This document shows positions 40,878-61,878 of a stretch of 64,000 nucleotides of DNA, in pieces. Position 1 is the first letter of the stretch. Each line of letters starts with the position of its first letter. Under the pieces are notes generated by a model. It saw only the letters and a program-made list of their open reading frames with translations, had not been told where the DNA came from and made no database searches. This DNA is from Alphaproteobacteria bacterium (GTDB lineage Bacteria > Pseudomonadota > Alphaproteobacteria > JANQMY01), in NCBI GenBank assembly GCA_028289425.1, contig JANQPL010000009.1, positions 324,961 through 388,960 on the forward strand. The letters run 5' to 3'. The translations under genes and the position numbers were made by a program.

Positions 40878-41642
40878 TCAGTGATTCCACCAGGGCCGGT
40901 CGGAGAACGCTCTCAAATCAAGTTCGTGGGTCCATGCCGAGCGATGCTGTTGCGATAGGTGATAATAGGTCTCGGCCATTTTGCTGGGCAACAACAAGCC
41001 ATCATGCTCCATGCCGCGCGTTTCCCGAAGCTTTTGGTAGCTTTCCTCGCCTAACAATTTGCCCAGAGTGTCGGGGGCGTCGACTGCCCCGTCCACGAGA
41101 ATGTGGGCGATGTGCACGCCCTTTGGCGAGAACTCTGCATTGAGCGTTTGACACAGCATGCGGCGTCCGCCCATGGCCGCCGCGTGAGAGTGTTGACCCG
41201 CATTACCCCGCACGGCCGCCGTGGCCGACGTCACCAAAAACGTGCCATGACCGCGTTCTTCCATCCGGGGGCATACGGACTTTGCTATGCGAAACAAAGC
41301 GAAGTTCGCCATGCGCCAGCCTAGCTCGAACTGTTTGTATGTCGTGTCCGCAAGGGGGCGGTCGCCGATCTGAGCCCCAAGATTGAAAAGCACCACCTCG
41401 ATCGGGCCGATTTCGGATTCGACCGCGGCCACCCGATCTTCGATGGTGTTCTCTTCCACCGCGTTCAACAGATATCCGGAGGCATCACCGCCATCGGCTT
41501 TGATGTCGCCGACCAGCTTGTCCAAACCATCTTGGTCGCTCCGGCGGCAGAGCACCGAATGATAGCCTTCAGCCGCGAATTTTTTGCCAACCGTGCCGCC
41601 AATGCCGGCACCCGCACCCATTACGAAGCAAACTGGTTTCAT
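40878..41642 (-). CDS. SDR family oxidoreductase
   Basis: GAGAGIG Rossmann motif and a YxxxK region. Confidence 0.75.
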   Translation of the reverse strand: MKPVCFVMGAGAGIGGTVGKKFAAEGYHSVLCRRSDQDGLDKLVGDIKADGGDASGYLLNAVEENTIEDRVAAVESEIGPIEVVLFNLGAQIGDRPLADTTYKQFELGWRMANFALFRIAKSVCPRMEERGHGTFLVTSATAAVRGNAGQHSHAAAMGGRRMLCQTLNAEFSPKGVHIAHILVDGAVDAPDTLGKLLGEESYQKLRETRGMEHDGLLLPSKMAETYYHLSQQHRSAWTHELDLRAFSDRPWWNH

Positions 41643-45694: not shown

Positions 45695-46918
45695 ATGGCC
45701 ATTGCGGAAACCGACGAATTGGGTTTTGAGGCGCCTGCCCCCGTAGGACACCCGGGACGGGCCGGCCTGCCGGCTAGCGCGTCAACCGGCCCAGAGATTG
45801 GCGAGCGCCTACCGGACTTCGCGCTGCCTGACGCCTTCGGCAACACGGTGCGTTTTCATGAGCACCGGGGGGCGTCGAAATCTGCCGTCGTCTTCTATCG
45901 TTCCGCGGTTTGGTGACCGCCCTGCATGACGCAGCTGGTCGAGCTGCAAGAGGGTTACAACAAGTTTCAGGAACAGGGCATCAAGCTCTACGCCATTTCT
46001 TATGACGATCAAGAGGTCCTGCGGGATTTCGCGCAGAGCTACGGCATTGAGTATCCCCTGCTGTCGGACATGGACTCGGCGGTCATCAAACAATTCGGCA
46101 TACTGAATACTCAAATCCAGCCGGGCGATGCGGTGCTGTACGGCATTCCCTATCCCGGCACCTACATCACCGATGAAGACGGTGTGGTGATCCAAAAGTT
46201 TTTCCACGACACTTATAAACGGCGCGAAGGACCGGAATTGCTGATCGATGCCGCCCTTGGCCGTGTCGTTCTGGATGACAGCGCCCCGGCAGCCTCCGAA
46301 ACAGACGACGAAGGCATCAAGGTCTCGGCCACCTTGCACGGCGGAGCGATCAAGCAGGGGGCACAGCGGGAAATCATCGTGCGCTTTGAACTGCCGGAGG
46401 GCCTGCACATTTATGGACAACCGGTGCCTGACGGCATGATCCCAACGACAGTAACCGTCAGCGGGCCCGAAGGCTTGGCCGTTGAAGAAACAATCTTTCC
46501 GCCTACAGAACAATTACGACTGGAGAGTTTGGATTTGGATTTGCCCGTTTGGTCGGGCCAAGTGGACATTCGCGTACCCATCTACGCCCTGTCCGCGCTG
46601 CAATCCGAGTGCCGGCCTCTAGATCAAGATGAGATCGATATCGAGGTGGCCGTTCGCTACCAGGCCTGCGATGACAATGTGTGCCTGCTGCCCAAATCGG
46701 AGAGCTTCACCATCACAGCACCTCTGGAGACCATTCACGTTCAGTCTATCGACTTGCATATGGGCCACGGCCAGAAAGAGGCCACTTTTGACGGCACGCC
46801 CCATTTGCGGCGCCTGCTCATCCGCAAGATCCGCCAGAGCCCACTCGGCTTTGTCCGTTATATATTTAAGGAAATGGGCCTGCGCCGCGCCGCCAGAAAG
46901 CGGGCTGTCTCGGACTAG
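45695..46918 (+). CDS. candidate selenoprotein: thioredoxin-fold redoxin (W-U-P-P-C) fused to a DsbD-alpha/DsbC-like domain, with in-frame TGA at 45914-45916
   Basis: ORFs 45566-45916 and 45926-46918 share one frame and are separated only by a TGA that sits exactly where the first Cys of a WCxxC motif is expected (VVFYRSAVW-U-PPCMTQ). A GCAGCUGGUCGAGCUGC hairpin starts 14 nt downstream. The C-terminal domain ends with a YQACDDNVC motif. Confidence 0.55.
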
Positions 46919-48466: not shown

Positions 48467-49147
48467 TCATTCCGCTGGGATACCCAACGAAACGTTCCTG
48501 TTTTCGCGGTTCCCCACCAGCGCAGATGCAAAACGGTGGTTCTTGTCGCGATGCCCTTCTTCATCGGCGCGCACCTGGATCACCACATCCCGCAGAGTAG
48601 CCGTTGCCGGCATGTGCCAGTATTTCAGTGCAATGTCCGGCGCCGGTACATTTTCCAGACGACCCGCATCGATCTCTTCCAGATAGCGCGTGTAACTGAC
48701 AACCGCTTCTTCTTCCAAATAACCAACAAAACGATGCGCCGTTTTCGGGAAGAACAAATAGAAGAAGAAATAGAAATTATAGAAGATTGCCTGGGCGAAC
48801 ATGATCAGCATACGTTCGAACATGTTCGGTTTGGCGATTTGGACAAACGTCATCAGATGCATGCGCTCGTTTTCCGCTTCATCGAGCAGTTCGCGGATCC
48901 ATCCCTGATCGTCGCGGATGTGGCGGAGCGCCTTGAGGTGCTGCAGCAGCCCACCCACCATGCCGGGCACCGCGGCAACGGTTTCCAACACCACCGCCCG
49001 GTGGCCATACCGTTTCTGGAAGAACAGATCCGCAAATATCCGCAAAAATTTAACGAGGCCCAGCGCAAGCCGGTCGCTCACGGATTGAACCGCGAAATGG
49101 GTGCCTGTGGCGACACCAGACCTGGGGGAAGACACATGCTCTGTCAT
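48467..49147 (-). CDS. aox: alternative oxidase (cyanide-insensitive ubiquinol oxidase)
   Basis: Di-iron ligand motifs [20 protein letters not shown] and RADEEGHRD are present. Confidence 0.8.
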
Positions 49148-49352
49148 TATTGCCTCCGCATGAAGCCAAGACGGGCGAAACGAGCCCACCTGTTAATTCT
49201 TAGGTAGAGCGCACTTGGTCGAAAACAATGTGACCAAAGGGCCCAAAGCCGTTCATTGGATTATCCAATGAGGTTTGTGTTTCTTGCCGATTAGCGCCTG
49301 CAAAACCGGCACCACGCTCCGCCCGAAAGGGACTGTTTAGGACGAAACCTAT

Positions 49353-52637: not shown

Positions 52638-54224
52638 TCAATCGCCGATTTTGCGCGAGACCGAAATGGAGCCCATCTCGCCGGTCGCCCAGCCGTGAAA
52701 CGCCCCTGAAAACTTGCCCGCATCGGACCCGGCCACGACGATGTGGATATAGACTTCGCTCAAGAACTTGGGCACCAACGAGTCAAGTTGTTCCGCCGTC
52801 ATATTGGCCGCCGCCTCCGGCTTGAGGCCGGCGCCGGAAATGTCATTGCCGACCATGTCGCGCAGCGGCCGCTTAGTCACTTCTTGGATACGTTCCCGCA
52901 AGCGCTTTTTGGAGTAATCGCCGTCCACCATCAGTGTGTCCACATGTTCCGGACACACCACCAGCAGCGTATCGATGGGCCAGCCGTGATATTTGGGATG
53001 AAAAACGCTTTCTAACCCCAGGCCCAATGTGCCCGCCATCTGATCGGGCTTGCGCGATTCCTGATCGACAATCAACGTCGGTCCGCTGGTCATGGCAAAG
53101 ATCGTGACCACGTTTTCGTCTTTTTTGAAGCCGCGCTCCACATGGAGCGGCTCCCATGGGTTGCGTTCTTCCCATTCGGCAAAGCACATGGTGAATTTCA
53201 TGGGATTGCCCAGGGTGGAGCGGTCCGTGCCGCCCGGTTTGGCGCCGCCTACATTGCGCACTACCAGGCGCAAGGCCCGGCCGATCGTTGCATTCGCGCG
53301 GCTGCCGTTCCCCAGCGCACCCAGCTTCATGTTCATATCGAGCTTGTGGCGGATGGGCCCGTTGATGATCATCACCGGCGCAGCCCCCATAGTGGTGGCG
53401 TTCACCCCATGAATATTGAATTCGTCCGTACACACAGCCTCCACGGCGGCGATTATGACGGGCATGTATTCGGGCTTACAGCCTGCCATGACGGCGTTGA
53501 TGGCGACTTTCTCAACGGTGACCTCACCCATATTGGGCGGCATGACGGCGATGACTTCCTGAGCGCCGCGTTTAGTGCCGTCGAGCATGCGCAACACCCG
53601 TTCCGGTGTGGGCGGAACCAGCGGCAGCCCGTCGGAGAAGCCTTGATCGAACATGAACTCGAACTCATCGTCCGCTTCGGCGATCTCGATCTTCCGGGCA
53701 CGGATGGGGCTATTATCGGCCTCGGCGCGCAAGCGGTCCGCCACCATAGGATCGACGGATTTTGAACCGCATCCCGGCCGCCATTCGGGCAGGTCGCCCC
53801 AAGCGATGCCGGCATCGTCGGCGCTGAGCACGCCCGCAATTTCTTTCTCAAGCGCTTCCCATTCCTCGCGCGCGAAACCGATCACCTTAGTGCCCGCGGT
53901 GCCATCGCCGCCCGCCCAGATGACGGTGGGCACGGTGTCAATCTCATTGTCGAAGGAAACTTTGCACCCCGATTCATCGAGGATGGGCACAGCCAGCTCA
54001 TGACGCTCTGAGAGAACAGCATTGCCTTCTTTGGTTTGGCCCAGCACCAGAATGTCGGCTTTGTCGCCCCAAGCGCGATGAAACCCGTCGAGCACCGGCA
54101 TCACCAGATTGCAGGTCGGACAGTCTTCCTTGACGAAACAGACAAGGGCCGGACGGCCGGTGGGGAAACGATGCGGCTTTCCCGCTGCATCGTTCAAGGC
54201 AAATGCATTTAGCGTTTCGGACAT
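52638..54224 (-). CDS. uncharacterized 528-aa protein: N-terminal thioredoxin-fold domain (CPTC) fused to a large domain of unknown function
   Basis: The VCFVKEDCPTCNLV CxxC motif sits in the first ~150 aa. I do not recognise the C-terminal ~370 aa. It lies inside the selenoprotein operon. Confidence 0.5.
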   Translation of the reverse strand: MSETLNAFALNDAAGKPHRFPTGRPALVCFVKEDCPTCNLVMPVLDGFHRAWGDKADILVLGQTKEGNAVLSERHELAVPILDESGCKVSFDNEIDTVPTVIWAGGDGTAGTKVIGFAREEWEALEKEIAGVLSADDAGIAWGDLPEWRPGCGSKSVDPMVADRLRAEADNSPIRARKIEIAEADDEFEFMFDQGFSDGLPLVPPTPERVLRMLDGTKRGAQEVIAVMPPNMGEVTVEKVAINAVMAGCKPEYMPVIIAAVEAVCTDEFNIHGVNATTMGAAPVMIINGPIRHKLDMNMKLGALGNGSRANATIGRALRLVVRNVGGAKPGGTDRSTLGNPMKFTMCFAEWEERNPWEPLHVERGFKKDENVVTIFAMTSGPTLIVDQESRKPDQMAGTLGLGLESVFHPKYHGWPIDTLLVVCPEHVDTLMVDGDYSKKRLRERIQEVTKRPLRDMVGNDISGAGLKPEAAANMTAEQLDSLVPKFLSEVYIHIVVAGSDAGKFSGAFHGWATGEMGSISVSRKIGD

Positions 54225-54228
54225 GTTT

Positions 54229-55428
54229 CTATTCGGTCGTCACCTTTTGGTTTCCCAGTGTGTGCACGGCGGAGGCGAACTCATTCAGTCCCAGGTCTTC
54301 CCGCATATCCGCCGTCACATCCGTAAAGTTGGGGTCGAGCGAAATGCCGATGCCGTCGGCAATGCGCACCATGCGTTCGAAATTGCCCACCACACCGGCT
54401 GCATCCACAAACTGCTCAGGGCTAACCGCCGCTAACAGATCAGTACGGGCTGCATCCAACGTCGCCTGATCGCCTTCAACAACGGCGTCGGCAAAGGCCG
54501 TTAGCTCCTTGCCCGCTGGGATCCGTTCGTCCACGCTTTCAGCGCCTTCAACAACACCCGTCAGTTCTACTTCTTCGCCGATCGATTGTGCGCTCACACG
54601 GAGCAGCATCGCATGAGCGGTCGTTCAATAGAAACAGTCGTTAAGTGCGGACACCCTCCCTGCAAGCAGTTCGATTTGAGGGCGCGACAGGTTTCGGCCT
54701 TCGTTGACCGCGCCGAATTTGCCGGCGGGAATGTATTGCACATCGCTTAAGGCGAACCAGTCACGCACGGCATCGGGCACCAAACTCAAGGCACGGGCCA
54801 CATTGGGAATGGTCTTGGCAAAATCCGCGCCCCATAGATCCTCGTCCGGCGCATGGGGTTGTTCCCGCGCCAGCATGGGGACATAGGCCTCGCCATCGAC
54901 CAAGGGGGCCGGCCGCGCTCCCGTCGGCTCTCCAGCGACGGGGCTCGGCAAAGCGTGCACCGGAACACCCAGGCCGCGGCAGGTTTGGTCCATGCTGCGG
55001 ATGGCAACCACGATTCCAAGCGCCTCCACATAATGACCATCCGAGAAACCTGCGTTCGCCAGATCTTCAATCGCTTTTTGGGTAATGCGGGTGACGTCCG
55101 TGACCATCATATGCACCATGGCGATGATGGGCTCCGTCAACACACCTTCCGTCATCGGATCAATGGTATGTTTGCCTTCGATGGTATAGGGGCTGAGTGC
55201 CTTTTTCCGCTCTACGCAAAACGGACATGTGATGGCTGCCCGCGCTTCTGCCGCAATACAAATGCGCTCAGCGCCGGTCCACCACGCGCCTGGCCGCGCG
55301 AGGCGGGACAGAACAACCGCATGGGCGTTCGCCATATCTTCCCGCACCGGCACTTTGCATGTCGCAAAGTCATTCGTGACATTGGCCAGTATGCCGGGGT
55401 CCCGTTGATCGTCGGTGATTTGTGGCAT
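54229..55428 (-). CDS. candidate tandem CMD/AhpD-like selenoprotein, with in-frame TGA at 54625-54627
   Basis: ORFs 54625-55428 and 54229-54609 are in frame. The readthrough is RVSALNDCFY-U-TTAH, i.e. the CMD core signature RVSxxNxCxxCxxxH with Sec at the second Cys. The first domain has TCPFC. Confidence 0.55.
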
Positions 55429-55452: not shown

Positions 55453-56241
55453 TTATTTGAGTGCTTTTTTGACAGCCTTGAGAACACGCTGCCCGTCGGA
55501 CCTTACTCTATAGTCACTCGATTGATCGATCCAGCGGATCGTGCCCGACGCATCGGTCAGGATGGTCGTGGGAATGGCCAGTGCTCGGCGCATCCCCCGG
55601 CTGTCGCGCGGATCGCCTGCCATGGCGTTGGGGTGCTCCACCCCGTAGGCCTTGATAACCTCCAGATCCGGATCGGCCAGTTGCAGCATGGAGAGCCCAT
55701 GTTTGCTGCGCATCGCGTCCGCCTGCTCGACCGTATTGGGGCTGATGGCGACCATTTTCACGCCCAGCGCGTCGAAATCATCTTGCAAGTCTTCCCATCG
55801 CTGCAACTCAGCGACACAGTAAGGTCACCAATGGCCCCGATAGAATTTGAGAAGCAGCGGGTCATTTTGCCCAGGCTCATATGCAAAAGTGCCCCCATCC
55901 CAATCGGCGGCAGCAAAGGCCGGAGCCGGCGCGCCCACTTTCACACCGACGCCCTTCGGCACCCCACCTTGAGAGAAGAGATAAAGGACAAAGCCGCCAA
56001 GGAGCACAGTGATGGCGGCAAGCGTGCCGCCGACCCAGCCCGGACCGAGAATGAGTGTCCAAACGGCCAACAGAAAACCTGTCAAAACCGACAGCTCGCT
56101 CAGAATGGGCCGCCGCGTGAACCCCTTCTTCAGAACAAGGATACGCCGAAAATAAAGCGCCATCCGCCCGATGACCAGCAGCATGGCCAGCGCAAGGGTG
56201 ACGTAGGGATTCCAGAGAAGTGAGAGAATTTGATCCGCCAT
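55453..56241 (-). CDS. candidate membrane-anchored redoxin selenoprotein (W-U-P-Y-C), with in-frame TGA at 55825-55827
   Basis: Three N-terminal transmembrane helices are followed by LKFYRGHW-U-PYCVAELQ, paralogous to the 45914 site. A GUCGCUG-AGUUG-CAGCGAU hairpin lies 9 nt after the UGA. It is directly downstream of selC. Confidence 0.55.
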
Positions 56242-56407
56242 CGCACGATCCTAGCGGGGGGCGCTCGTGACTGGCAAGTCAAGCAATCGTGGGGAGCTCA
56301 GTCTGCCTTAGCGCGGGGTCAGTCCACCTACGCCAAGGCTACGGTGGACACTCCTTCGTCTAACGAGCTTCGGCTGGTTCACCACCCGAAGCTCGAAGAG
56401 CGAAGGG

Positions 56408-56501
56408 TGGCGGAGGCGGATGGGAATCGAACCCACCACACGCATGGCTGCGTGTCACTGGTTTTGAAGACCAGGGAAGCCACCAGACTCCATTCGCCTC
56501 C
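56408..56501 (-). tRNA. selC: tRNA-Sec (selC), anticodon UCA
   Basis: The reverse complement reads GGAGGCGAAUGG ... CCUGGU-CUUCAAA-ACCAG ... GGUUCGAUUCC ... CCGCCUCCGCCA. It is ~94 nt with a long extra arm, an anticodon loop with UCA at positions 34-36, and an encoded CCA. Confidence 0.75.
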
Positions 56502-56584
56502 TCTCGAAGATGTGGGTTGGACTATGTCACAGCCATTGGCTAGAAAGAAAGAGTGTTGAAGCAATCGAAGGAAAAAGCCACGCG

Positions 56585-57649
56585 ATGGCGGACAAAGATA
56601 AGGTCCGGCTGACGCAGTACGCTGTGTCTGCTGGTTGAGCCGGTAAGCTCGGACCTGGGCAGTTGTCGCAAGTTTTGCGACCGTTGAAAGATATATTTCC
56701 GCAGGCGGATTTTCCCGATGTGCTGAGGGGGCTCAGCTCACCGGACGATGCCGCTGTGCTGAAACTGACCGACGAGTTGTCGATGGTAGCAACGGCGGAC
56801 TTCTTCGCGCCGGTGGTGGATGACCCCTACCAGTTCGGCGCCATCGCCGCCGCCAACGCCCTGTCTGATGTTTACGCAATGGGCGCCGAGCCAAAGCTCG
56901 CGCTTAATCTCGCAGGCTTTCCGAAAACACTGGACCTGGACATTCTGAACGAGATCTTCCGCGGCGGCGCCGACAAGGTGCGCGAGGCGGGCGCCGCCAT
57001 TGCCGGCGGTCACACCACCTTCGACGAAGAACCCAAATACGGCCTGGCGGTAATGGGTGTGCTGAACAAAGCGACCGCTTTCGCCAATGAAGGGGCCAAG
57101 CCCGGCGATCAGTTGATCCTCACCAAACCCATCGGTACGGGGATCATCACCACCGCCCTTAAACAAAGTAAGATCGACGAAAGCGACACCGAAGAAGCCG
57201 TCGCCAGCATGGCGCGCTTGAGCGCAGGCGCGGCGAAGATTTTGCGTGCCGCTCCCGCCGGCGCTGTCCATGCGGTCACCGACATTACCGGCTTCTCATT
57301 GGCGGGCCATGGGCATGAGATGGCGGATCAGTCGGGCGTTGCATTGGAGATTGCGTTTTCGAAGATCCCGCTGCTTGCCGGCACGGACGGCTTGGCCGCG
57401 CAAGGCGTCGCCCCCGGCGGCGCCGGACGGAACAAGGACTATTTCGGCCAATGGTTCGAGCGGGGGCCAAGCATCACCGACGCCCAAGAAACCATCGTCT
57501 TCGACCCGCAAACTTCCGGCGGCTTGCTGGTGGCCGTCGCGCCGCAAGCGCTTGAAAGTCTGATGGCCGATTTTTCCGAAGCAAGCGAGCCGGTTTGGCA
57601 TATCGGCAAGGTCACTGACGGTCCCAATGGCACCATTCACCTTGTTTAA
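56585..57649 (+). CDS. selD: selenide, water dikinase (selenophosphate synthetase), Sec-containing form with UGA at 56636-56638
   Basis: ATG 56585 is followed by KDKVRLTQYAVSAG-U-AGK, aligning with E. coli RLTQYSHGAGCGCK (Cys17). The downstream sequence is collinear with SelD (DFFAPVVDDPYQFG ... GGHT). Confidence 0.8.
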
Positions 57650-57707
57650 GGTGAAAGCTTTTCAGGCCGCTACCTGACGCGCTATCCTTCTTTAAACAGA
57701 AACTTGT

Positions 57708-57779
57708 CCGCCCCGCTCCCCCTTCCCAACCACCCCAAGGGTAACCTTATCGGGTGGTTGGGAAGGGGGAGCGGGGCGG
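57708..57779. repeat. long perfect palindromic element (28-bp stem), copy 2, in the selD-selA spacer
   Basis: CCGCCCCGCTCCCCCTTCCCAACCACCC-CAAGGGTAACCTTATC-GGGTGGTTGGGAAGGGGGAGCGGGGCGG. Confidence 0.6.
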
Positions 57780-57795
57780 TGAGGTCATACAAACA

Positions 57796-59184
57796 ATGGA
57801 CTCGAGCCTTTTTCGCAAAATCCCTCAGGTGAATGACCTGGCATTGAAACCGCACATCGCGCTGCTGGAAGGCGCGTGGAGCCGCGACGAGATGGTCGAT
57901 GCGCTACGCGCAGCACTCGATGAGGTGCGCGAGGGTCTGCGCAAGGGCACTGCCCTGCCCGATTTCGATAGCCCCGCCTTTGCCGCGCATATCGAAGCAC
58001 TCATGGCCGCCACAAGACAGCCCAGCCTGCGCCGCATCATCAATGCCACGGGCATCGTCATCCATACCAATTTGGGGCGCTCGCCCTTAGCACCGGCCGC
58101 CCTGGAAGCGATCCAAGAAACCGCTGCCGGTTACACAAACATCGAAATGACACTTGCGACGGGCCAGCGCGGCTCGCGCTACGATCATGTACGCGATTTG
58201 ATCTGTGAGCTGACAGGTGCGGAAGATGCAATTATGGTCAATAATTGCGCCGCCGCCGTTACCCTGGCGCTTGCTACCTTCGCCAAAGACAAAGAGGTCG
58301 TGGTCTCCCGCGGCGAACTGATCGAAATCGGCGGATCGTTCCGCATCCCGGATATCGTCGCCCAAAACGGCGCCACATTGCGCGAGGTGGGCACCACCAA
58401 CAAGACCCATTTGTCGGATTATCAAAACGCCATTACCGACGGCACAGCCGTTCTGCTGAAAACGCACACAAGTAACTACCGTATCGTCGGTTTCACCGCG
58501 TGCCCCGAACGAACGGCGCTCGCGAAACTTGCCAATGAAAACCAGCTTGTTTTGCTGGAAGATTTGGGCAGCGGGACGTTGATCGACCTCACCGCCTATG
58601 GCATCGGCGACGAGCCCACCGTGCAGCATTGTATCGCCTCCGGCGTGCACTTGGTGACGTTTTCCGGCGACAAGCTGCTGGGCGGACCCCAATGTGGAAT
58701 CATGGCGGGTAAGAAGGAGCTTGTGGCCAAACTGCGCAAGAACCCGCTGCTGCGGGCCATGCGCATCGACAAGCTATCGCTGGCGGCGTTAGAAGCCACC
58801 TTGCGGCTTTACAAGACACCTTTCGAGCCCGAAGAAGATATCCCGACGCTTCGCATGCTGACGGCAACGCCCGAAGAGCTGGAAGAGACGGCGCAGGATC
58901 TTGCGGCGGCGCTCAACGCCCTCCCGGAAGTAACCGCAACGACAGCCCAAACTATGAGCGAAGCGGGTGGCGGCTCCCTGCCTGCCCACCAGTTAGCGTC
59001 GTATTGCGTGCGCCTCACTGTCGGCACATTGACGCCGGATGCGTTGATGGCACGTCTGCGCCAGGGGGGAACACCGATCATCGCACGCATCTCCAAAGGC
59101 GACGTGATCTTGGATGTGCGCACGCTTTTGCCCGATGATGTATCGGATCTGCCGGGCCTGATCGGCGCCCTAGAGAGCACATGA
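57796..59184 (+). CDS. selA: L-seryl-tRNA(Sec) selenium transferase
   Basis: Collinear with E. coli SelA as I recall it ([44 protein letters not shown]). It carries the PLP-lysine region. Confidence 0.85.
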
Positions 59185-61070
59185 CCGAACAACTTTCTCT
59201 CGGCGTGATCGGCCATGTGGACCATGGCAAGACCACGTTGGTCAAAGCGCTCACCGGCATGGAAACCGACCGGCTGAAAGAAGAAAAGCTGCGCGGGCTT
59301 TCTATTGTGCTTGGGTTTGCCTACCTCGAAACCGAACGCGGCCTTATCGACTTTATCGACACACCCGGCCATGCGGATTTCGTCCGTACCATGATTTCCG
59401 GGGTGAGCGGCATCGACGCGGCACTCATCGTCATTTCCGCCAACGAGAAAATCATGCCGCAAACGGTGGAACACATTCGCATTGTGTCTCTGCTGGGTAT
59501 CGACCAGGCGGTGGTGGCGCTCACCAAAACTGATTTAGCGACGGATGACGAGATCCGCGATGCCACCACAGAGATAGAGGCCTATCTTGCCGACACGGCA
59601 TTTTCCAACGTGACCATCGTACCGGTGAGTGCGCCGGCGAACCACGGGGTCGACGACTTGGTGGCCGCGCTCAACACGCTGTTCGACACCAAACCCAAAC
59701 GCGCCGATGTGGGTCATTTCTACTTGCCCTTCGACCGGGTGTTTAGCGTGAAAGGCTTCGGCACGGTCGGCACCGGCACCCTCAGCGCGGGGCCCGTCGC
59801 CGTCGGCGATGTGGCGGAAATCGCGCCGGACGGCCGCAAAGCGCGGGTGCGCAGCCTGGAAGTCCACGGGGGTTCTGTTGAGCGCGCCCTGCCCGGCCAA
59901 AGGGTCGCCGCCAATGTGCGCTTGGAAGGCACCGGCGAGATAGCGAGGGGCAACGCACTCACCTCGCCCGACTGGCTGCCCGCATCGGACTATTGGGATG
60001 GCACACTTCAACTGTTAAGCGACGCGCCGAAGGAACTCAAAAGCGGGGCAAAGCTTCGCATCCTGCATGGCACGACGGAAGACATTGCCACGATCCGCTT
60101 GCTCGACAGAGAGCGCCTCAAGCCTGGTGAAACGGGTCCCGTCCAGTTTCGATTGGCCCAACCCGCCGTGGCCTGGCATCAGGAACGGTTCATCGTGCGT
60201 TCGATCACGCCCGTTCAAACCATTGGCGGCGGTCAATTCACGGACACCCAGGCCAAACGGCGCGGGCGCAAAGACAGCGCGATCACGGCGCCGTCCGAAA
60301 AAGCGGATGCCCGCACGACGGCCCTGCTGTCCATCGTCAATAATGCCGGAACGGACGGTATTTCCCTTGCGGAGCTTGGGCAGCGGGTGGACTTGCCGGA
60401 AGACGATCTGCGCCAGCTCTGCCTTAAACACGAATGCTCTATCGAACAAAACGGGCTGGTCTATGCCAGTGGCGTTATCACCGCCACGATGGAAAAGATC
60501 GCGGCGCTGCTGGGCGAATTTCATGAGGCCAATCCGACCCGCATGGGACAGCAACAAAGCGAGTTGGCGTCACGCCTGGGCGTTCCGCAACGCTTGTTCC
60601 GCTTCGCTATGGCGCTGATGGCCGATACCAAACAATTGAACATAAGCCAAGGCATTGTGCGCCTGACCTCATTCGACCCATTCGCGCAGCTTAAACCTGA
60701 CGAGCGCAAAATATTGGAGGCACTGGAACAGCGTTTGATCGAACAAGGCATCACCGCGCCGACGCTCAAAGAGCTCACAGAAGAAAACCCCAAATTCAAA
60801 GACATCTCGCGGTTTTTAGTGGATACAAACCATGCCATCGCGGTTTTCGATGAAAAACGAAAGAACCTGTTCTTCTTCCATCACAGTGCCATTGATGGGG
60901 CCATTGAGGATTTGCGAAAGGCCTTTCCACCGCCGGCGGCCTTCACAGCCAGTCAAGCCCGCGAGGCGCTGGGCACCACCCGCAAATATGTCATGCCGTT
61001 GCTGGGCCATCTGGACAAACAAAAAATTACGCGGCGCAAGGACGACATGCGCACGCTAGCAGTCCAATAA
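59181..61070 (+). CDS. selB: selenocysteine-specific elongation factor
   Basis: GTPase motifs GHVDHGKTT and DTPGH are followed by the C-terminal winged-helix extension. A 4-nt overlap with selA suggests translational coupling. Confidence 0.85.
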
Positions 61071-61083
61071 TGAGGAGCCGCTC

Positions 61084-61878
61084 ATGCCGGCCGAGCAAAA
61101 AGTAATCGACCCGGACCTGTCGGACTTTCAAGTACCGATGCAGCCAATCCCCGAGCGGGTAGAAGCCGCAATCGCCCGCGGCGTTGAAGCCGGGCGGGAC
61201 ATGCCGCTCGAAAGCGCCGGTGACATGCTGACCGTTCCCGAGGGCGCCAAGATCGACAATGTGCATCGAAACAGCGACGGCTTATTGGTCGTTTGCTGCC
61301 ACACGGATATGCCCAACGTGTTACCGAATATGTGGACCTGGTGGTTCGGCTGGCATATGCCTTCTTCCGCGAGATATCGGCTGTGGCATCCCAAGGATCA
61401 TGTGAGGTCTCAGATCAACTTCGATCAGGCGGCCGCGGACAGACATCGCTCGAAATACATCGGCCAGGCGTCGATGGTCGACGAGTATATCGGCGGCAAG
61501 ATGCAAAAGCTGACGATCGCCTTTCAACCGCCTGCTGATTTCGGGCTGGATCAGGATGAAGTCGACCGTCAAGGGGTTGCCATCTGTGCCCGGACGGAAC
61601 TGCGCACACCGCCGATGGCCGCGGGGCGGTTGATCCATCTGGTCAGACGAACAAATGCGGGATCGGAGATGCTCAGCCGCTTTTGGTTGGGAAACGTCAA
61701 TGTCGAGGTGCCGTTCGTTGGCACGATCCTTGATCCCATACTCAATACGCGATCCATGCGTCATGTTCTGGCGACAGACCAAATGGGTCTGGCCTTGCTG
61801 CGTCATTGTTCTGAGGAAATGAACCATTTGGCCCGCATCCTGCCGGACCTCTTCGGTCGATTTGGCGCAGCCGAATGA
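61084..61878 (+). CDS. hypothetical protein (possibly DAPG-hydrolase/PhlG-like)
   Basis: 264 aa with a Trp-rich motif WTWWFGWHMP. The family assignment is a weak recollection. Confidence 0.3.
   Translation: MPAEQKVIDPDLSDFQVPMQPIPERVEAAIARGVEAGRDMPLESAGDMLTVPEGAKIDNVHRNSDGLLVVCCHTDMPNVLPNMWTWWFGWHMPSSARYRLWHPKDHVRSQINFDQAAADRHRSKYIGQASMVDEYIGGKMQKLTIAFQPPADFGLDQDEVDRQGVAICARTELRTPPMAAGRLIHLVRRTNAGSEMLSRFWLGNVNVEVPFVGTILDPILNTRSMRHVLATDQMGLALLRHCSEEMNHLARILPDLFGRFGAAE

What the first reader, a model, noticed from the sequence alone, without database searches (positions are those of the whole stretch)
55453..56241. Membrane-anchored thioredoxin-fold selenoprotein candidate (FYRGHW-U-PYC) directly downstream of selC
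Three predicted transmembrane helices are followed by a redoxin domain in which a TGA replaces the first Cys of a WCxxC-like motif. A 7-bp-stem hairpin with an AGUUG loop begins 9 nt after the UGA, which is SECIS-like. Its placement immediately after tRNA-Sec suggests co-expression of the decoder with its client.
Basis: seen in the sequence. Interest (0 to 1): 0.7.

Follow-up and report, generated by a model that had tools for sequence, protein, structure and literature searches.

The report
Membrane-anchored Prx-like selenoprotein gene
This is a real selenocysteine-encoding gene for a membrane-tethered thioredoxin-fold redox protein, but it belongs to a selenoprotein family ("Prx-like 1", UxxC motif) that metagenome surveys catalogued years ago, so it is correct but ordinary.

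Summary
On the minus strand, 56241..55453 is a 262-residue reading frame with one in-frame TGA (55827..55825, codon 139) inside FYRGHW-U-PYC. The Pfam AhpC/TSA match spans the TGA. Full-length homologues have Cys at that column.

At least 120 metagenome loci and three close alphaproteobacterial relatives keep the same TGA, and the frame continues after it. Against those relatives, dN/dS after the TGA is about 0.05.

The 7-bp hairpin with an AGUUG loop, starting 9 nt after the UGA, is conserved. It shows compensatory changes and strongly constrained synonymous codons. Seven Cys-homologue genes lack the GU-containing loop and fold more weakly. selC, selD (itself Sec-containing), selA and selB all lie within 5 kb.

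The protein has three N-terminal membrane helices. The positive-inside rule places the redox domain in the cytoplasm. Its active site is ResA/TlpA-like (W-U/C-x-x-C plus a cis-Pro motif), not a canonical peroxiredoxin site.

This family, including the three-helix subtype, is already listed as "Prx-like 1" in the 2008 GOS selenoproteome.

The selC adjacency is found only in this alphaproteobacterial clade. A conserved promoter-like element directly upstream of the ATG argues for separate transcription.

Verdict: new member of a known kind, low interest.

The parts
55453..56241 (-). Complete coding sequence of the Prx-like selenoprotein: 262 residues plus TAA stop, with Sec at codon 139.
   Evidence: Translation. 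Pfam AhpC-TSA E = 3.5e-25 and Redoxin E = 1.3e-17, both spanning the UGA. Orthologues at 76-85% identity in L001-L003. dN/dS of about 0.05 after the UGA.
55825..55827 (-). In-frame UGA read as selenocysteine (U139), the first position of the U-P-Y-C redox motif.
   Evidence: Sequence. Cys at this column in full-length homologues. The same TGA in more than 120 loci. TGA is an ordinary stop in 6 of 14 window genes.
55816..55818 (-). Codon for Cys142, the second residue of the UxxC centre and presumed partner in the selenenylsulfide.
   Evidence: Invariant in 120 aligned sequences. It aligns with the peroxidatic Cys position of peroxiredoxins and with the second Cys of the ResA motif.
55797..55815 (-). 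SECIS hairpin: 5' arm 55815..55809 (GUCGCUG), loop 55808..55804 (AGUUG), 3' arm 55803..55797 (CAGCGAU). It starts 9 nt after the UGA.
   Evidence: Predicted in the minimum-energy fold; -8.9 kcal/mol. Covariation over 110 distinct Sec genes: 81% paired against 70% shuffled, 49 against 15 double-sided changes, 0 of 500 shuffles as high. GU in the loop in 71 of 77 Sec genes against 0 of 7 Cys genes.
55978..56226 (-). Region encoding three membrane-spanning helices (residues 6-24, 46-64, 70-88) and the Lys/Arg-rich loop between helices 1 and 2.
   Evidence: Hydropathy and charge counts over 73 homologues. Three helices in the AlphaFold model of Cys homologue P0005, pLDDT 94.
55531..55938 (-). Redoxin (AhpC/TSA, thioredoxin-fold) domain, residues 102-237, including the cis-Pro motif I-P224-T-T.
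   Evidence: Pfam. Profile against PDB. Foldseek matches to BCP/PrxQ and ResA.
56248..56277 (-). Promoter-like element: TTGCCA, 18 nt spacer, TAGGAT. It ends 6 nt before the ATG, so the mRNA is probably leaderless.
   Evidence: Consensus scan. These are the only conserved blocks in the otherwise variable selC-to-ATG spacer of four relatives. Function is inferred, not shown.
56408..56501 (-). selC, the gene for tRNA-Sec (anticodon UCA).
   Evidence: ARAGORN. Rfam RF01852, 83.2 bits.
54229..55428 (-). Next gene downstream (24-nt gap): AhpD-related CFY-U-T selenoprotein, with UGA at 54627..54625.
   Evidence: Translation. NCBIfam NF041238 AhpD_rel_CFYUT, E = 1.9e-126. Conserved in L002 and L003.
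52638..54224 (-). Third gene of the apparent operon (4-nt gap): a 528-residue protein with an N-terminal thioredoxin-like CPTC region and an uncharacterised remainder.
   Evidence: ORF. No Pfam match. Weak thioredoxin matches in PDB. It recurs next to Sec-form Prx-like genes in L003, L027, L051 and L077.
56585..61070 (+). Divergently transcribed selenocysteine machinery: selD (56585-57649, itself with UGA at 56636-56638), selA (57754-59184), selB (59181-61070).
   Evidence: Translation. Pfam AIRS/AIRS_C, SelA, and GTP_EFTU plus SelB winged-helix domains.

Best explanation
The gene encodes a 262-residue selenoprotein of the known 'Prx-like 1 / Prx-like thiol:disulfide oxidoreductase' family (PF00578 domain, UxxC motif).

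Decoding. UGA-139 is read as selenocysteine. The 7-bp hairpin with the AGUUG loop, 9 nt downstream of the UGA, would act as the bacterial SECIS: SelB carrying GTP and Sec-tRNA(Sec) binds it and delivers the tRNA to the UGA. The tRNA gene (selC), selD, selA and selB are all encoded within 5 kb. The sequence evidence for this step is shown here; the biochemistry is inferred from how bacterial Sec insertion is known to work.

Protein. Three N-terminal helices anchor it in the inner membrane. The positive-inside rule predicts the N-terminus outside and the redoxin domain in the cytoplasm (inferred, about 0.7). The active site is of the thioredoxin/ResA type: W-U139-P-Y-C142 at the start of helix alpha-1, plus a cis-Pro motif (I-P224-T-T). 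Sec occupies the exposed nucleophilic position.

Mechanism. The most likely chemistry (inferred, about 0.55) is selenol/thiol to selenenylsulfide exchange, reducing a disulfide or an oxidised substrate at the membrane surface. Direct GPx-like reduction of hydroperoxides is the main alternative.

Expression. The gene probably has its own leaderless promoter (inferred, about 0.5). It probably forms an operon with the AhpD-related CFYU-T selenoprotein and a 528-residue thioredoxin-like protein immediately downstream. These are candidate redox partners.
For: (1) The redoxin domain spans the UGA: Pfam AhpC-TSA, E = 3.5e-25, residues 102-237.

(2) 119 full-length homologues share the three-helix-plus-redoxin layout. 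They carry FFRGHW-C-PYC, with Cys at the UGA column in at least 90% of the 120 aligned sequences.

(3) The TGA is conserved.
- L001-L003 (76-85% identity) and L004 (Myxococcota) have the same TGA.
- A metagenome scan for GHW-TGA-PYCV reached its 120-locus limit. In the loci whose sequence extends past the TGA, the frame runs on for about 115-135 codons, apart from a few shorter exceptions.

(4) The part after the UGA is under strong purifying selection: dN/dS = 0.075/1.23 against L002 and 0.059/1.45 against L003.

(5) The hairpin behaves as a constrained RNA element.
- Over 110 distinct Sec genes, 81% of cells are paired against 70.1% in shuffles. There are 49 double-sided changes against 15.3, and the covariation score is 0.293 against 0.175. 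None of 500 shuffles reached these values, and all slid registers score lower.
- Pair 18-26 switches between C-G, U-A and A-U together with the Arg/Gln/Leu change.
- L028 and L039 encode VRQLAAW instead of VAELQRW, yet keep a 7-bp stem and the AGUUG loop.
- In 77 membrane-subfamily Sec genes, Leu is UUG or UUA in 74 and the second Arg is CGA in 70. GU is in the loop in 71, and mean hairpin energy is -8.9 kcal/mol.
- Seven Cys-homologue genes use CUG/CUC and CGC. None has GU in the loop, and their hairpin energies are -0.1 to -7.5 kcal/mol.

(6) The Sec machinery is in the window: tRNA-Sec, selD, selA and selB.

(7) UGA is not reassigned. It ends 6 of 14 well-supported genes in the window.

(8) Active-site type. 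In profile alignments UxxC lies over the WCxxC of ResA and over the TxxC of peroxiredoxins. Pro224 lies over the catalytic Arg of peroxiredoxins.

(9) Topology. Mean Lys+Arg is 4.0 in the loop between helices 1 and 2 and 1.5 just after helix 3. It is about 0.1 in the N-tail and in the loop between helices 2 and 3, over 73 homologues.

(10) Literature.
- The Prx-like UxxC family was reported in the Sargasso Sea survey (PMC1088965).
- The GOS sequence file holds GHWUPYC 27 times. JCVI_READ_1929089 there has the same three-helix architecture.
Against: - There is no experimental evidence of selenium incorporation for this gene or, as far as I found, for this subfamily. The 2026 review lists the family as 'predicted with high confidence'.
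- Single-sequence folding is not compelling: z = +0.54 for 76 nt and -2.0 for 38 nt.
- Rfam reports no SECIS family here.
- RNAalifold on the mixed set of 110 sequences gives no consensus structure. On the 80 membrane-subfamily sequences alone it recovers only most of the stem, at -3.3 kcal/mol. Other subfamilies place their hairpin in a different register.
- The peptide VAELRRW by itself already gives 4-6 of the 7 pairs in Cys genes, so part of the stem follows from the protein sequence.
- Only seven Cys-gene DNAs were available as controls.
- The cytoplasmic orientation rests on the positive-inside rule alone. The structural model is of a 40%-identical Cys homologue, not of the window protein.
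- Substrate and reductant are unknown.
Confidence: 0.9

Rival explanations
1. The TGA is a true stop. The locus would encode a 138-residue membrane protein and, separately or not at all, a C-terminal fragment starting at an internal TTG (ORF 55806..55453).
For: A mechanical ORF list splits the locus exactly this way. Public gene calls truncate the orthologue P0001 at ...FYRGHW.
Against: - The split falls inside the redox motif of a single Pfam domain.
- The frame, the amino-acid sequence and dN/dS of about 0.05 are all maintained across the TGA in relatives.
- More than 120 loci keep TGA followed by an in-frame redoxin half.
- Full-length Cys homologues exist.
Confidence: 0.02
2. The gene is a pseudogene or carries a sequencing error: a TGC/TGT Cys codon mutated or misread to TGA in a Cys-type gene.
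For: A single base change converts TGY to TGA. One sequence alone cannot exclude this.
Against: - The same TGA is present in independent assemblies: L001-L004 and more than 110 distinct metagenome sequences.
- Purifying selection acts downstream of it.
- Codon choices specific to Sec genes build the hairpin.
- A complete Sec machinery and three other UGA-containing redox genes lie in the same window.
Confidence: 0.01
3. It is a selenoprotein, but it works as a peroxidase (GPx- or peroxiredoxin-like) rather than by thiol-disulfide exchange. Sec would attack a hydroperoxide, for example a membrane lipid hydroperoxide, and Cys142 would resolve the selenenic acid.
For: - The best structural matches include BCP/PrxQ/AhpE peroxiredoxins: 5enu E = 9e-13, 3hjp TM-score 0.89 on the target.
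- The best Pfam family is AhpC/TSA.
- The neighbouring gene is related to AhpD alkylhydroperoxidase.
- Sec at the start of helix alpha-1 is the arrangement used by glutathione peroxidases (established knowledge, not tested here).
- Membrane tethering would suit lipid substrates (inference).
Against: - The peroxiredoxin catalytic Thr and Arg are both missing. Sec sits at the Thr position and Pro224 at the Arg position.
- The WCxxC plus cis-Pro site is the ResA/TlpA type.
- The literature classes the family as a thiol:disulfide oxidoreductase.
Confidence: 0.3
4. The redoxin domain faces the periplasm, as in TlpA/ResA/CcmG, and takes electrons from a DsbD/CcdA-type transporter.
For: - The closest sequence relatives with solved structures are extracytoplasmic ResA proteins: 3c71 E = 7e-6, 4nmu.
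- The window's paralogue (45695-46918) is fused to a DsbD N-terminal-like domain.
Against: - With three membrane helices, a periplasmic C-terminus would put the Lys/Arg-rich loop (mean 4.0 positive charges) outside and the uncharged segments inside. That contradicts the positive-inside rule in 73 homologues.
- No dsbD or ccdA gene was seen beside the gene in the window, among the genes I examined.
Confidence: 0.25
5. selC and the selenoprotein gene are made as one transcript, so that the tRNA and its client are expressed together.
For: - Both lie on the same strand, 166 nt apart, with no terminator-like site in the spacer.
- The adjacency is kept in L001, L002 and L003.
Against: - A conserved -35/-10-like pair lies directly before the ATG. 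The rest of the spacer varies freely in length and sequence.
- None of about 115 other Sec-form loci has a tRNA-Sec gene nearby.
- No transcript data are available.
Confidence: 0.3

Closest known systems
Prx-like 1 / 'Prx-like thiol:disulfide oxidoreductase' selenoprotein family (PF00578, UxxC). Attributed here, from my own knowledge, to Kryukov & Gladyshev 2004, which I did not read. Read here: Zhang et al. 2005 (PMC1088965), Zhang & Gladyshev 2008 (PMC2398784), 2026 review (PMC13188914).
   Same: - AhpC/TSA domain.
- Sec in a thioredoxin-like UxxC motif, in place of the peroxiredoxin TxxC.
- Abundant Cys homologues.
- A SECIS hairpin just after the UGA.
- The GOS sequence set under '#Prx-like 1' contains GHWUPYC 27 times. 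JCVI_READ_1929089 has the same three-helix N-terminus and KFFRAHW-U-PYCV.
[quoted passage not shown]
   Different: Nothing differs in kind. Three things are specific to this member:
- It sits directly after selC, in a Sec-machinery cluster.
- Its hairpin is the Gln (CAG) / GCU variant.
- Its neighbour is the NF041238 type of AhpD relative.
The passages I searched in these papers do not mention the membrane anchor.
ResA / TlpA / CcmG (TlpA-like thiol-disulfide oxidoreductases)
   Same: - W-C-x-x-C active site at the start of helix alpha-1, with a cis-Pro motif (PTT).
- Thioredoxin fold with the same insertions.
- Membrane-anchored.
- Best sequence matches among solved structures: 3c71 E = 7e-6; 4nmu E = 5.8e-14 with the family profile.
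   Different: - Those proteins have one N-terminal anchor and act outside the cytoplasm, with Cys only.
- This one has three helices, a predicted cytoplasmic domain and Sec at the first position.
- It scores far below the NCBIfam ResA and DsbE cut-offs (38.6 against 170 bits; 17.8 against 123 bits).
BCP/PrxQ and AhpE peroxiredoxins (for example PDB 5enu, 3hjp, 1xxu)
   Same: - Overall fold: Foldseek E = 1e-12 to 1e-10, TM-score on the target 0.85-0.89.
- Same Pfam family.
   Different: - It lacks the peroxiredoxin catalytic Thr and Arg. Sec lies at the Thr position, Cys142 at the peroxidatic Cys position, and Pro224 at the Arg position.
- Sec-containing true peroxiredoxins use TxxU, not UxxC.
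Bacterial SECIS elements (E. coli fdhF type; general bacterial model of Zhang & Gladyshev)
   Same: - A hairpin inside the coding sequence immediately 3' of the UGA.
- The apical loop starts 16 nt after the UGA and contains a conserved G-U.
- It accompanies selA, selB, selC and selD.
   Different: - It is short: a 7-bp stem and a 5-nt loop, with no bulged U.
- It is not matched by any Rfam SECIS model.
- SelB binding has not been tested.
AhpC/AhpD alkylhydroperoxidase pair of mycobacteria (functional analogy only, from established knowledge)
   Same: A Prx-fold protein is encoded next to an AhpD-fold CxxC-type protein that could recycle it. Here the pair is UxxC and CxxU.
   Different: - The window's Prx-like protein lacks the peroxiredoxin triad.
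- The AhpD relative belongs to the distinct NF041238 family.
- The pairing occurs only in this alphaproteobacterial clade.
- No interaction has been tested.

Membership tests
Prx-like 1 (UxxC) selenoprotein family | AhpC/TSA (PF00578) thioredoxin-fold domain | tested here: met
   Pfam AhpC-TSA, E = 3.5e-25, 88.8 bits (cut-off 26), residues 102-237.
Prx-like 1 (UxxC) selenoprotein family | Sec in a thioredoxin-like UxxC motif, replacing the TxxC of peroxiredoxins | tested here: met
   W-U139-P-Y-C142. The profile alignment puts U over the peroxiredoxin Thr and over the first Cys of ResA. The motif definition is in PMC1088965.
Prx-like 1 (UxxC) selenoprotein family | Homologues with Cys aligned to the UGA | tested here: met
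   C139 in at least 90% of 120 aligned sequences, 119 of them full-length homologues.
Prx-like 1 (UxxC) selenoprotein family | Conserved stem-loop (bacterial SECIS) shortly after the UGA, with G/U in the apical loop | tested here: met
   7-bp stem and AGUUG loop. Covariation and synonymous-site constraint, in contrast to Cys genes. Caveats: no Rfam match and no RNAalifold consensus on the mixed set.
Prx-like 1 (UxxC) selenoprotein family | The host encodes selA, selB, selC and selD | tested here: met
   All four lie within 56408-61070.
Prx-like 1 (UxxC) selenoprotein family | Selenium actually incorporated into the protein | not testable with these tools
   Needs 75Se labelling or mass spectrometry.
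Canonical peroxiredoxin (BCP/PrxQ, AhpC) | PxxxTxxC motif with a catalytic Thr three residues before the peroxidatic Cys | tested here: not met
   The Thr position is occupied by Sec/Cys (alignment to 5enu and 2cx3).
Canonical peroxiredoxin (BCP/PrxQ, AhpC) | Conserved catalytic Arg (the R-x-T-F-x-I-D region) | tested here: not met
   The aligned residue is the nearly invariant Pro224 of I-P-T-T-I-L.
TlpA/ResA/CcmG-like extracytoplasmic thiol-disulfide oxidoreductases | WCxxC active site plus cis-Pro loop | tested here: met
   W138 is invariant; C139, P140 and P224 are nearly invariant; T225 is invariant. Alignment to ResA. The cis conformation of the Pro was not examined.
TlpA/ResA/CcmG-like extracytoplasmic thiol-disulfide oxidoreductases | Single N-terminal anchor or signal, with the catalytic domain outside the cytoplasm | tested here: not met
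   Three hydrophobic helices. The charge distribution predicts a cytoplasmic domain. This is a prediction only. NCBIfam ResA and DsbE scores are far below the cut-offs.

The most novel reading that the evidence does not exclude
The membrane-tethered, cytoplasm-facing UxxC protein could be a GPx4-like reductase of membrane lipid hydroperoxides or another membrane-borne oxidant. It would be the first component of a selenium-dependent three-protein relay: the Prx-like UxxC protein, the AhpD-related CFYU-T selenoprotein, and the 528-residue thioredoxin-like protein. All three are encoded in one operon placed directly after selC, so that the tRNA and its clients are regulated together.
Probability: 0.1. 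Interest if true: 0.5.

Novelty: new member of a known kind. Interest (0 to 1): 0.22.

Why it matters
Mainly for annotation. Standard gene callers split this gene at the UGA: the orthologue P0001 is recorded as a 179-residue protein ending in FYRGHW. The same window holds three more UGA-containing redox genes, so selenoproteomes of such alphaproteobacterial genomes are undercounted.

The comparative set gathered here also gives a clean example of a SECIS laid over a conserved peptide. Synonymous choices (Leu UUG/UUA, Arg CGA, Ala GCC/GCU) complete a hairpin that the Cys homologues carry only in partial form.

The biochemical role of this widespread membrane-anchored subfamily is still unknown. 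That is the only open question of wider interest.

Tried and rejected
- Rfam scan of the whole window found only tRNA-Sec and no SECIS family.
- RNAalifold on all 110 distinct post-UGA sequences gave no consensus. Per-subfamily folding explained why: each subfamily has its hairpin 12-18 nt after the UGA, in its own register.
I modelled the Cys homologue P0005 instead.
- Genomic island inserted at selC: rejected. There is no second copy of the selC 3' end, GC content is uniform, and synteny with L002/L003 runs through the region.
- Conserved operon partner across the family: none found. The best neighbour clusters occur in at most 7 of 86 loci. Only the 528-residue protein recurs at all.
- My own first guess that Sec replaces the peroxidatic Cys was wrong. 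The profile alignment puts it at the peroxiredoxin Thr position.
- A scan for further in-frame UGA genes turned up 'WWNH-U-PHC' at 40878-40880. It is just the true stop of a protein that looks like a short-chain dehydrogenase (not run against Pfam).
- NCBIfam has no model that this protein passes.
- A full-text search for a described transmembrane UxxC peroxiredoxin-like selenoprotein returned nothing.
Full report
**1. Observation**

The feature lies on the minus strand. An ATG at 56241 opens a frame that runs to a TAA at 55455..55453, with one in-frame TGA at 55827..55825 (codon 139). The local context is LLLKFYRGHW-U-PYCVAELQRWE.

With Cys placed at the TGA, Pfam AhpC-TSA matches residues 102-237 (E = 3.5e-25) and Redoxin matches residues 101-244 (E = 1.3e-17). 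A single domain therefore straddles the TGA.

Residues 6-24, 46-64 and 70-88 are hydrophobic.

The hairpin GUCGCUG-AGUUG-CAGCGAU occupies 55815..55797 and starts 9 nt after the UGA. It appears in the minimum-energy folds.

tRNA-Sec lies at 56501..56408 on the same strand (ARAGORN; Rfam 83.2 bits).

**2. Is the UGA decoded?**

A search of 5.8 billion proteins returned 156 homologues; the best 120 are listed. Nearly all are full-length proteins of about 260 residues with the same layout and the motif FFRGHW-C-PYCVAELRRWE. In an alignment of 120 sequences the UGA column is Cys in at least 90%. W138, Y141, C142, E145, L146 and T225 are invariant.

The top hit, P0001 (76% identity), is a gene call that stops at ...FYRGHW. 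Its contig (L001) shows TGA followed in frame by PYCVAELQRWEEFQDEFDALGVK.

A scan of one genome per species found two alphaproteobacterial MAGs (L002, L003; 84-85% identity) and a Myxococcota MAG (L004) with the same TGA.

A metagenome scan for GGNCAYTGGTGACCNTAYTGYGT stopped at its 120-locus limit. In the loci whose sequence extends past the TGA, the frame continues for about 115-135 codons into the rest of a redoxin domain, apart from a few shorter exceptions.

Between the window and L002 or L003, the post-UGA part has dN/dS of 0.075/1.23 and 0.059/1.45. It is therefore translated and under selection.

TGA is an ordinary stop for 6 of 14 well-supported genes in the window, including selA, so the code is standard.

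True stop, pseudogene and sequencing error are therefore rejected.

**3. The hairpin as a SECIS**

The single-sequence thermodynamic signal is weak: z = -2.0 for 38 nt and +0.5 for 76 nt. The comparative evidence carries the case.

*Covariation.* Over 110 distinct post-UGA sequences (alignment A1), the seven named pairs form standard pairs in 81.0% of cells, against 70.1 ± 0.8% in shuffles. There are 49 double-sided changes against 15.3 ± 3.3. The covariation score is 0.293 against 0.175. None of 500 shuffles reached these values, and all slid registers score lower.

*Compensatory changes.* Pair 18-26 is C-G in Arg forms (GCC...CGG), U-A in Gln forms such as the window's (GCU...CAG), and A-U in L097 (GCA...CUG). 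L028 and L039 encode VRQLAAW yet keep a 7-bp stem and the AGUUG loop.

*Sec genes against Cys genes.*

| Feature | 77 distinct membrane-subfamily Sec genes | 7 Cys-homologue genes, L130-L136 |
|---|---|---|
| Leu codon | UUG/UUA in 74 | CUG/CUC in 6, UUG in 1 |
| Second Arg codon | CGA in 70 | CGC in 5, CGA and CGG in 1 each |
| GU in the loop | 71 | 0 |
| Hairpin energy | mean -8.9 kcal/mol | -0.1 to -7.5 kcal/mol |
| Pairs formed | not counted for this subset | 4-6 of 7 |

A Fisher test run conservatively as 1 of 7 gave p = 1.5e-5.

The peptide already supplies a partial stem. Sec genes complete it and place GU in the loop through synonymous choices.

*Honest negatives.*
- Rfam has no match.
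- RNAalifold finds no consensus on the mixed set. On the 80 membrane-subfamily sequences alone it recovers only most of the stem, at -3.3 kcal/mol.
- The other subfamilies (VMELEAL, VxQLxEL) place their hairpin 3-6 nt further on.

**4. Sec machinery and neighbours**

selD lies at 56585-57649 and itself carries UGA at codon 18 (SAG-U-AGK). selA is at 57754-59184 and selB at 59181-61070. They are transcribed divergently from selC.

Downstream of the target, on the same strand:
- After a 24-nt gap comes a protein that matches NCBIfam NF041238 'AhpD_rel_CFYUT' at E = 1.9e-126. Its UGA sits exactly in CFY-U-T.
- After a further 4 nt comes a 528-residue protein with an N-terminal CPTC thioredoxin-like region and no Pfam match.

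The whole arrangement is syntenic in L002 and L003.

**5. selC adjacency and transcription**

tRNA-Sec precedes the gene in L001-L003. It is absent from about 115 other Sec-form loci. The adjacency is therefore a trait of this clade, not of the family.

The spacer between selC and the ATG varies in length from about 70 to 210 nt and is unconserved, except for two blocks:
- a TTGCCA-like block,
- and, 18 nt later, TA(G/T/A)GAT followed by CGTGCG-ATG.

The invariant T, A and final T fit a -10 box better than a ribosome-binding site. With only 6 nt left before the ATG, I infer a separate promoter giving a leaderless mRNA (confidence about 0.5).

No terminator-like site lies in the spacer, so read-through from selC is not excluded.

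There is no sign of an island inserted at selC.

**6. What the protein is**

*No specific model.* No NCBIfam model is passed. The best partial hits are BCP, ResA and 'SelL-related redox protein'.

*Structure.* An AlphaFold model of Cys homologue P0005 (40% identical to the target, 119-sequence alignment) is confident: pLDDT 94.3, pTM 0.89. It shows helices 3-26, 34-54 and 57-79, followed by a thioredoxin fold. Foldseek ranks BCP/PrxQ/AhpE peroxiredoxins and ResA about equally, from 5enu at 9e-13 to 3c71 at 1.6e-10.

*Active-site type.* The profile-to-PDB alignment settles it:
- UxxC lies over the WCxxC of ResA and over the TxxC of peroxiredoxins.
- Sec is therefore at the peroxiredoxin Thr position, and Cys142 at the peroxidatic Cys position.
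- Pro224 of the nearly invariant I-P-T-T lies over the catalytic Arg of peroxiredoxins.

The site is thus thioredoxin/TlpA-like, as the literature name 'Prx-like thiol:disulfide oxidoreductase' implies.

*Topology.* Over 73 homologues, mean Lys+Arg is 4.0 in the loop between helices 1 and 2 and 1.5 just after helix 3. It is about 0.1 in the N-tail and in the loop between helices 2 and 3. The positive-inside rule then gives N-terminus out and C-terminus in, so the redoxin domain is cytoplasmic. This is inferred and would differ from the extracytoplasmic TlpA family.

**7. Mechanism (inferred)**

SelB with Sec-tRNA(Sec) is recruited by the hairpin and decodes UGA-139.

In the mature protein, the selenolate of U139 at the start of helix alpha-1 attacks an oxidised substrate at the inner face of the membrane. 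Cys142 resolves the intermediate to a selenenylsulfide. A thioredoxin-type donor then regenerates the site. The two downstream gene products are candidate donors.

Whether the substrate is a disulfide (favoured by the active-site type) or a hydroperoxide (favoured by the fold and the AhpD-type neighbour) cannot be decided here.

**8. Comparison with what is known, and novelty**

- The Prx-like UxxC family counted 22 Sec sequences in the Sargasso Sea survey (PMC1088965).
- As 'Prx-like 1' (pfam00578, UxxC) it counted 225 Sec sequences and 2,740 Cys homologues in GOS. [quoted passage not shown]
- The 2026 review lists both this family and the NF041238 AhpD-related family (PMC13188914).
- The GOS supplementary sequences under '#Prx-like 1' contain GHWUPYC 27 times. 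JCVI_READ_1929089 has the same three-helix N-terminus and KFFRAHW-U-PYCV. JCVI_READ_900765 has the architecture of the window's paralogue.

This gene is therefore a new member of a known, computationally predicted selenoprotein family.

The membrane anchor is not mentioned in the passages I searched in these papers, and no member appears to have been characterised experimentally. These are gaps in knowledge rather than novelties of this locus.

**9.

The gene at 45695-46918 on the plus strand reads VFYRSAVW-U-PPC (UGA at 45914-45916). It carries AhpC-TSA and DsbD_N domains and is 26% identical to the target over the redoxin domain. A 6-bp hairpin with a GGUCG loop starts 14 nt after its UGA. 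It is a second selenoprotein of the same broad family, not a close duplicate.

**10. Verdict**

The co-expression idea is not established and is probably unnecessary. Novelty: new member of a known kind. Interest is low (0.22), and the main value is correct annotation.

Noticed in passing
window 54229-55428 (-), UGA at 54625-54627: The gene immediately downstream is itself a selenoprotein. It is an equivalog-level match to NCBIfam NF041238 'AhpD_rel_CFYUT' (E = 1.9e-126), with UGA in the CFY-U-T motif. A 10-bp hairpin follows the UGA.
   Followed up: partly
window 56585-57649 (+), UGA at 56636-56638: Selenophosphate synthetase SelD is itself Sec-containing (SAG-U-AGK). Gene callers would start it at the internal TTG at 56663.
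   Followed up: partly
window 45695-46918 (+), UGA at 45914-45916: A second Prx-like selenoprotein (VW-U-PPC) is fused to a DsbD N-terminal-like domain. It has a GGUCG-loop hairpin after the UGA. The same architecture appears in GOS read JCVI_READ_900765.
   Followed up: partly
window 52638-54224 (-); also L003 8022-9605, L027, L051, L077: A 528-residue protein has an N-terminal thioredoxin-like CPTC region and an about 400-residue remainder with no Pfam or PDB sequence match. It recurs next to Sec-form Prx-like genes in distant loci (48-49% identity). It is a possible functional partner of unknown function.
   Followed up: partly
window 56248-56277 (-) and the aligned positions in L001-L003: A conserved -35/-10-like pair ends 6 nt before the ATG, in an otherwise unconserved spacer. 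This suggests a leaderless mRNA for the selenoprotein gene.
   Followed up: partly
L133, L134, L135, L136 (Cys-homologue loci), positions 1-240: Four of the seven Cys-form homologues whose DNA was fetched have a divergently oriented TetR-family regulator gene directly upstream. No such neighbour stood out among the Sec-form loci.
   Followed up: no
L130-L136, the 31 nt after the first Cys codon: Cys-form genes already carry 4-6 of the 7 hairpin pairs, because the codons for VAELRRW are partly self-complementary. This partial hairpin may ease switches between Cys and Sec in this family, or be a relic of them.
   Followed up: partly
window, 14 genes checked: All four UGA-containing selenoprotein genes end in TAA or TAG. 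Six of the ten other genes checked end in TGA. The sample is small and this may be chance.
   Followed up: no
window 48467-49189 (-) and 61084-61878 (+): The neighbourhood includes an alternative oxidase (Pfam AOX, E = 7e-85). A DAPG-hydrolase-like gene lies directly after selB.
   Followed up: no
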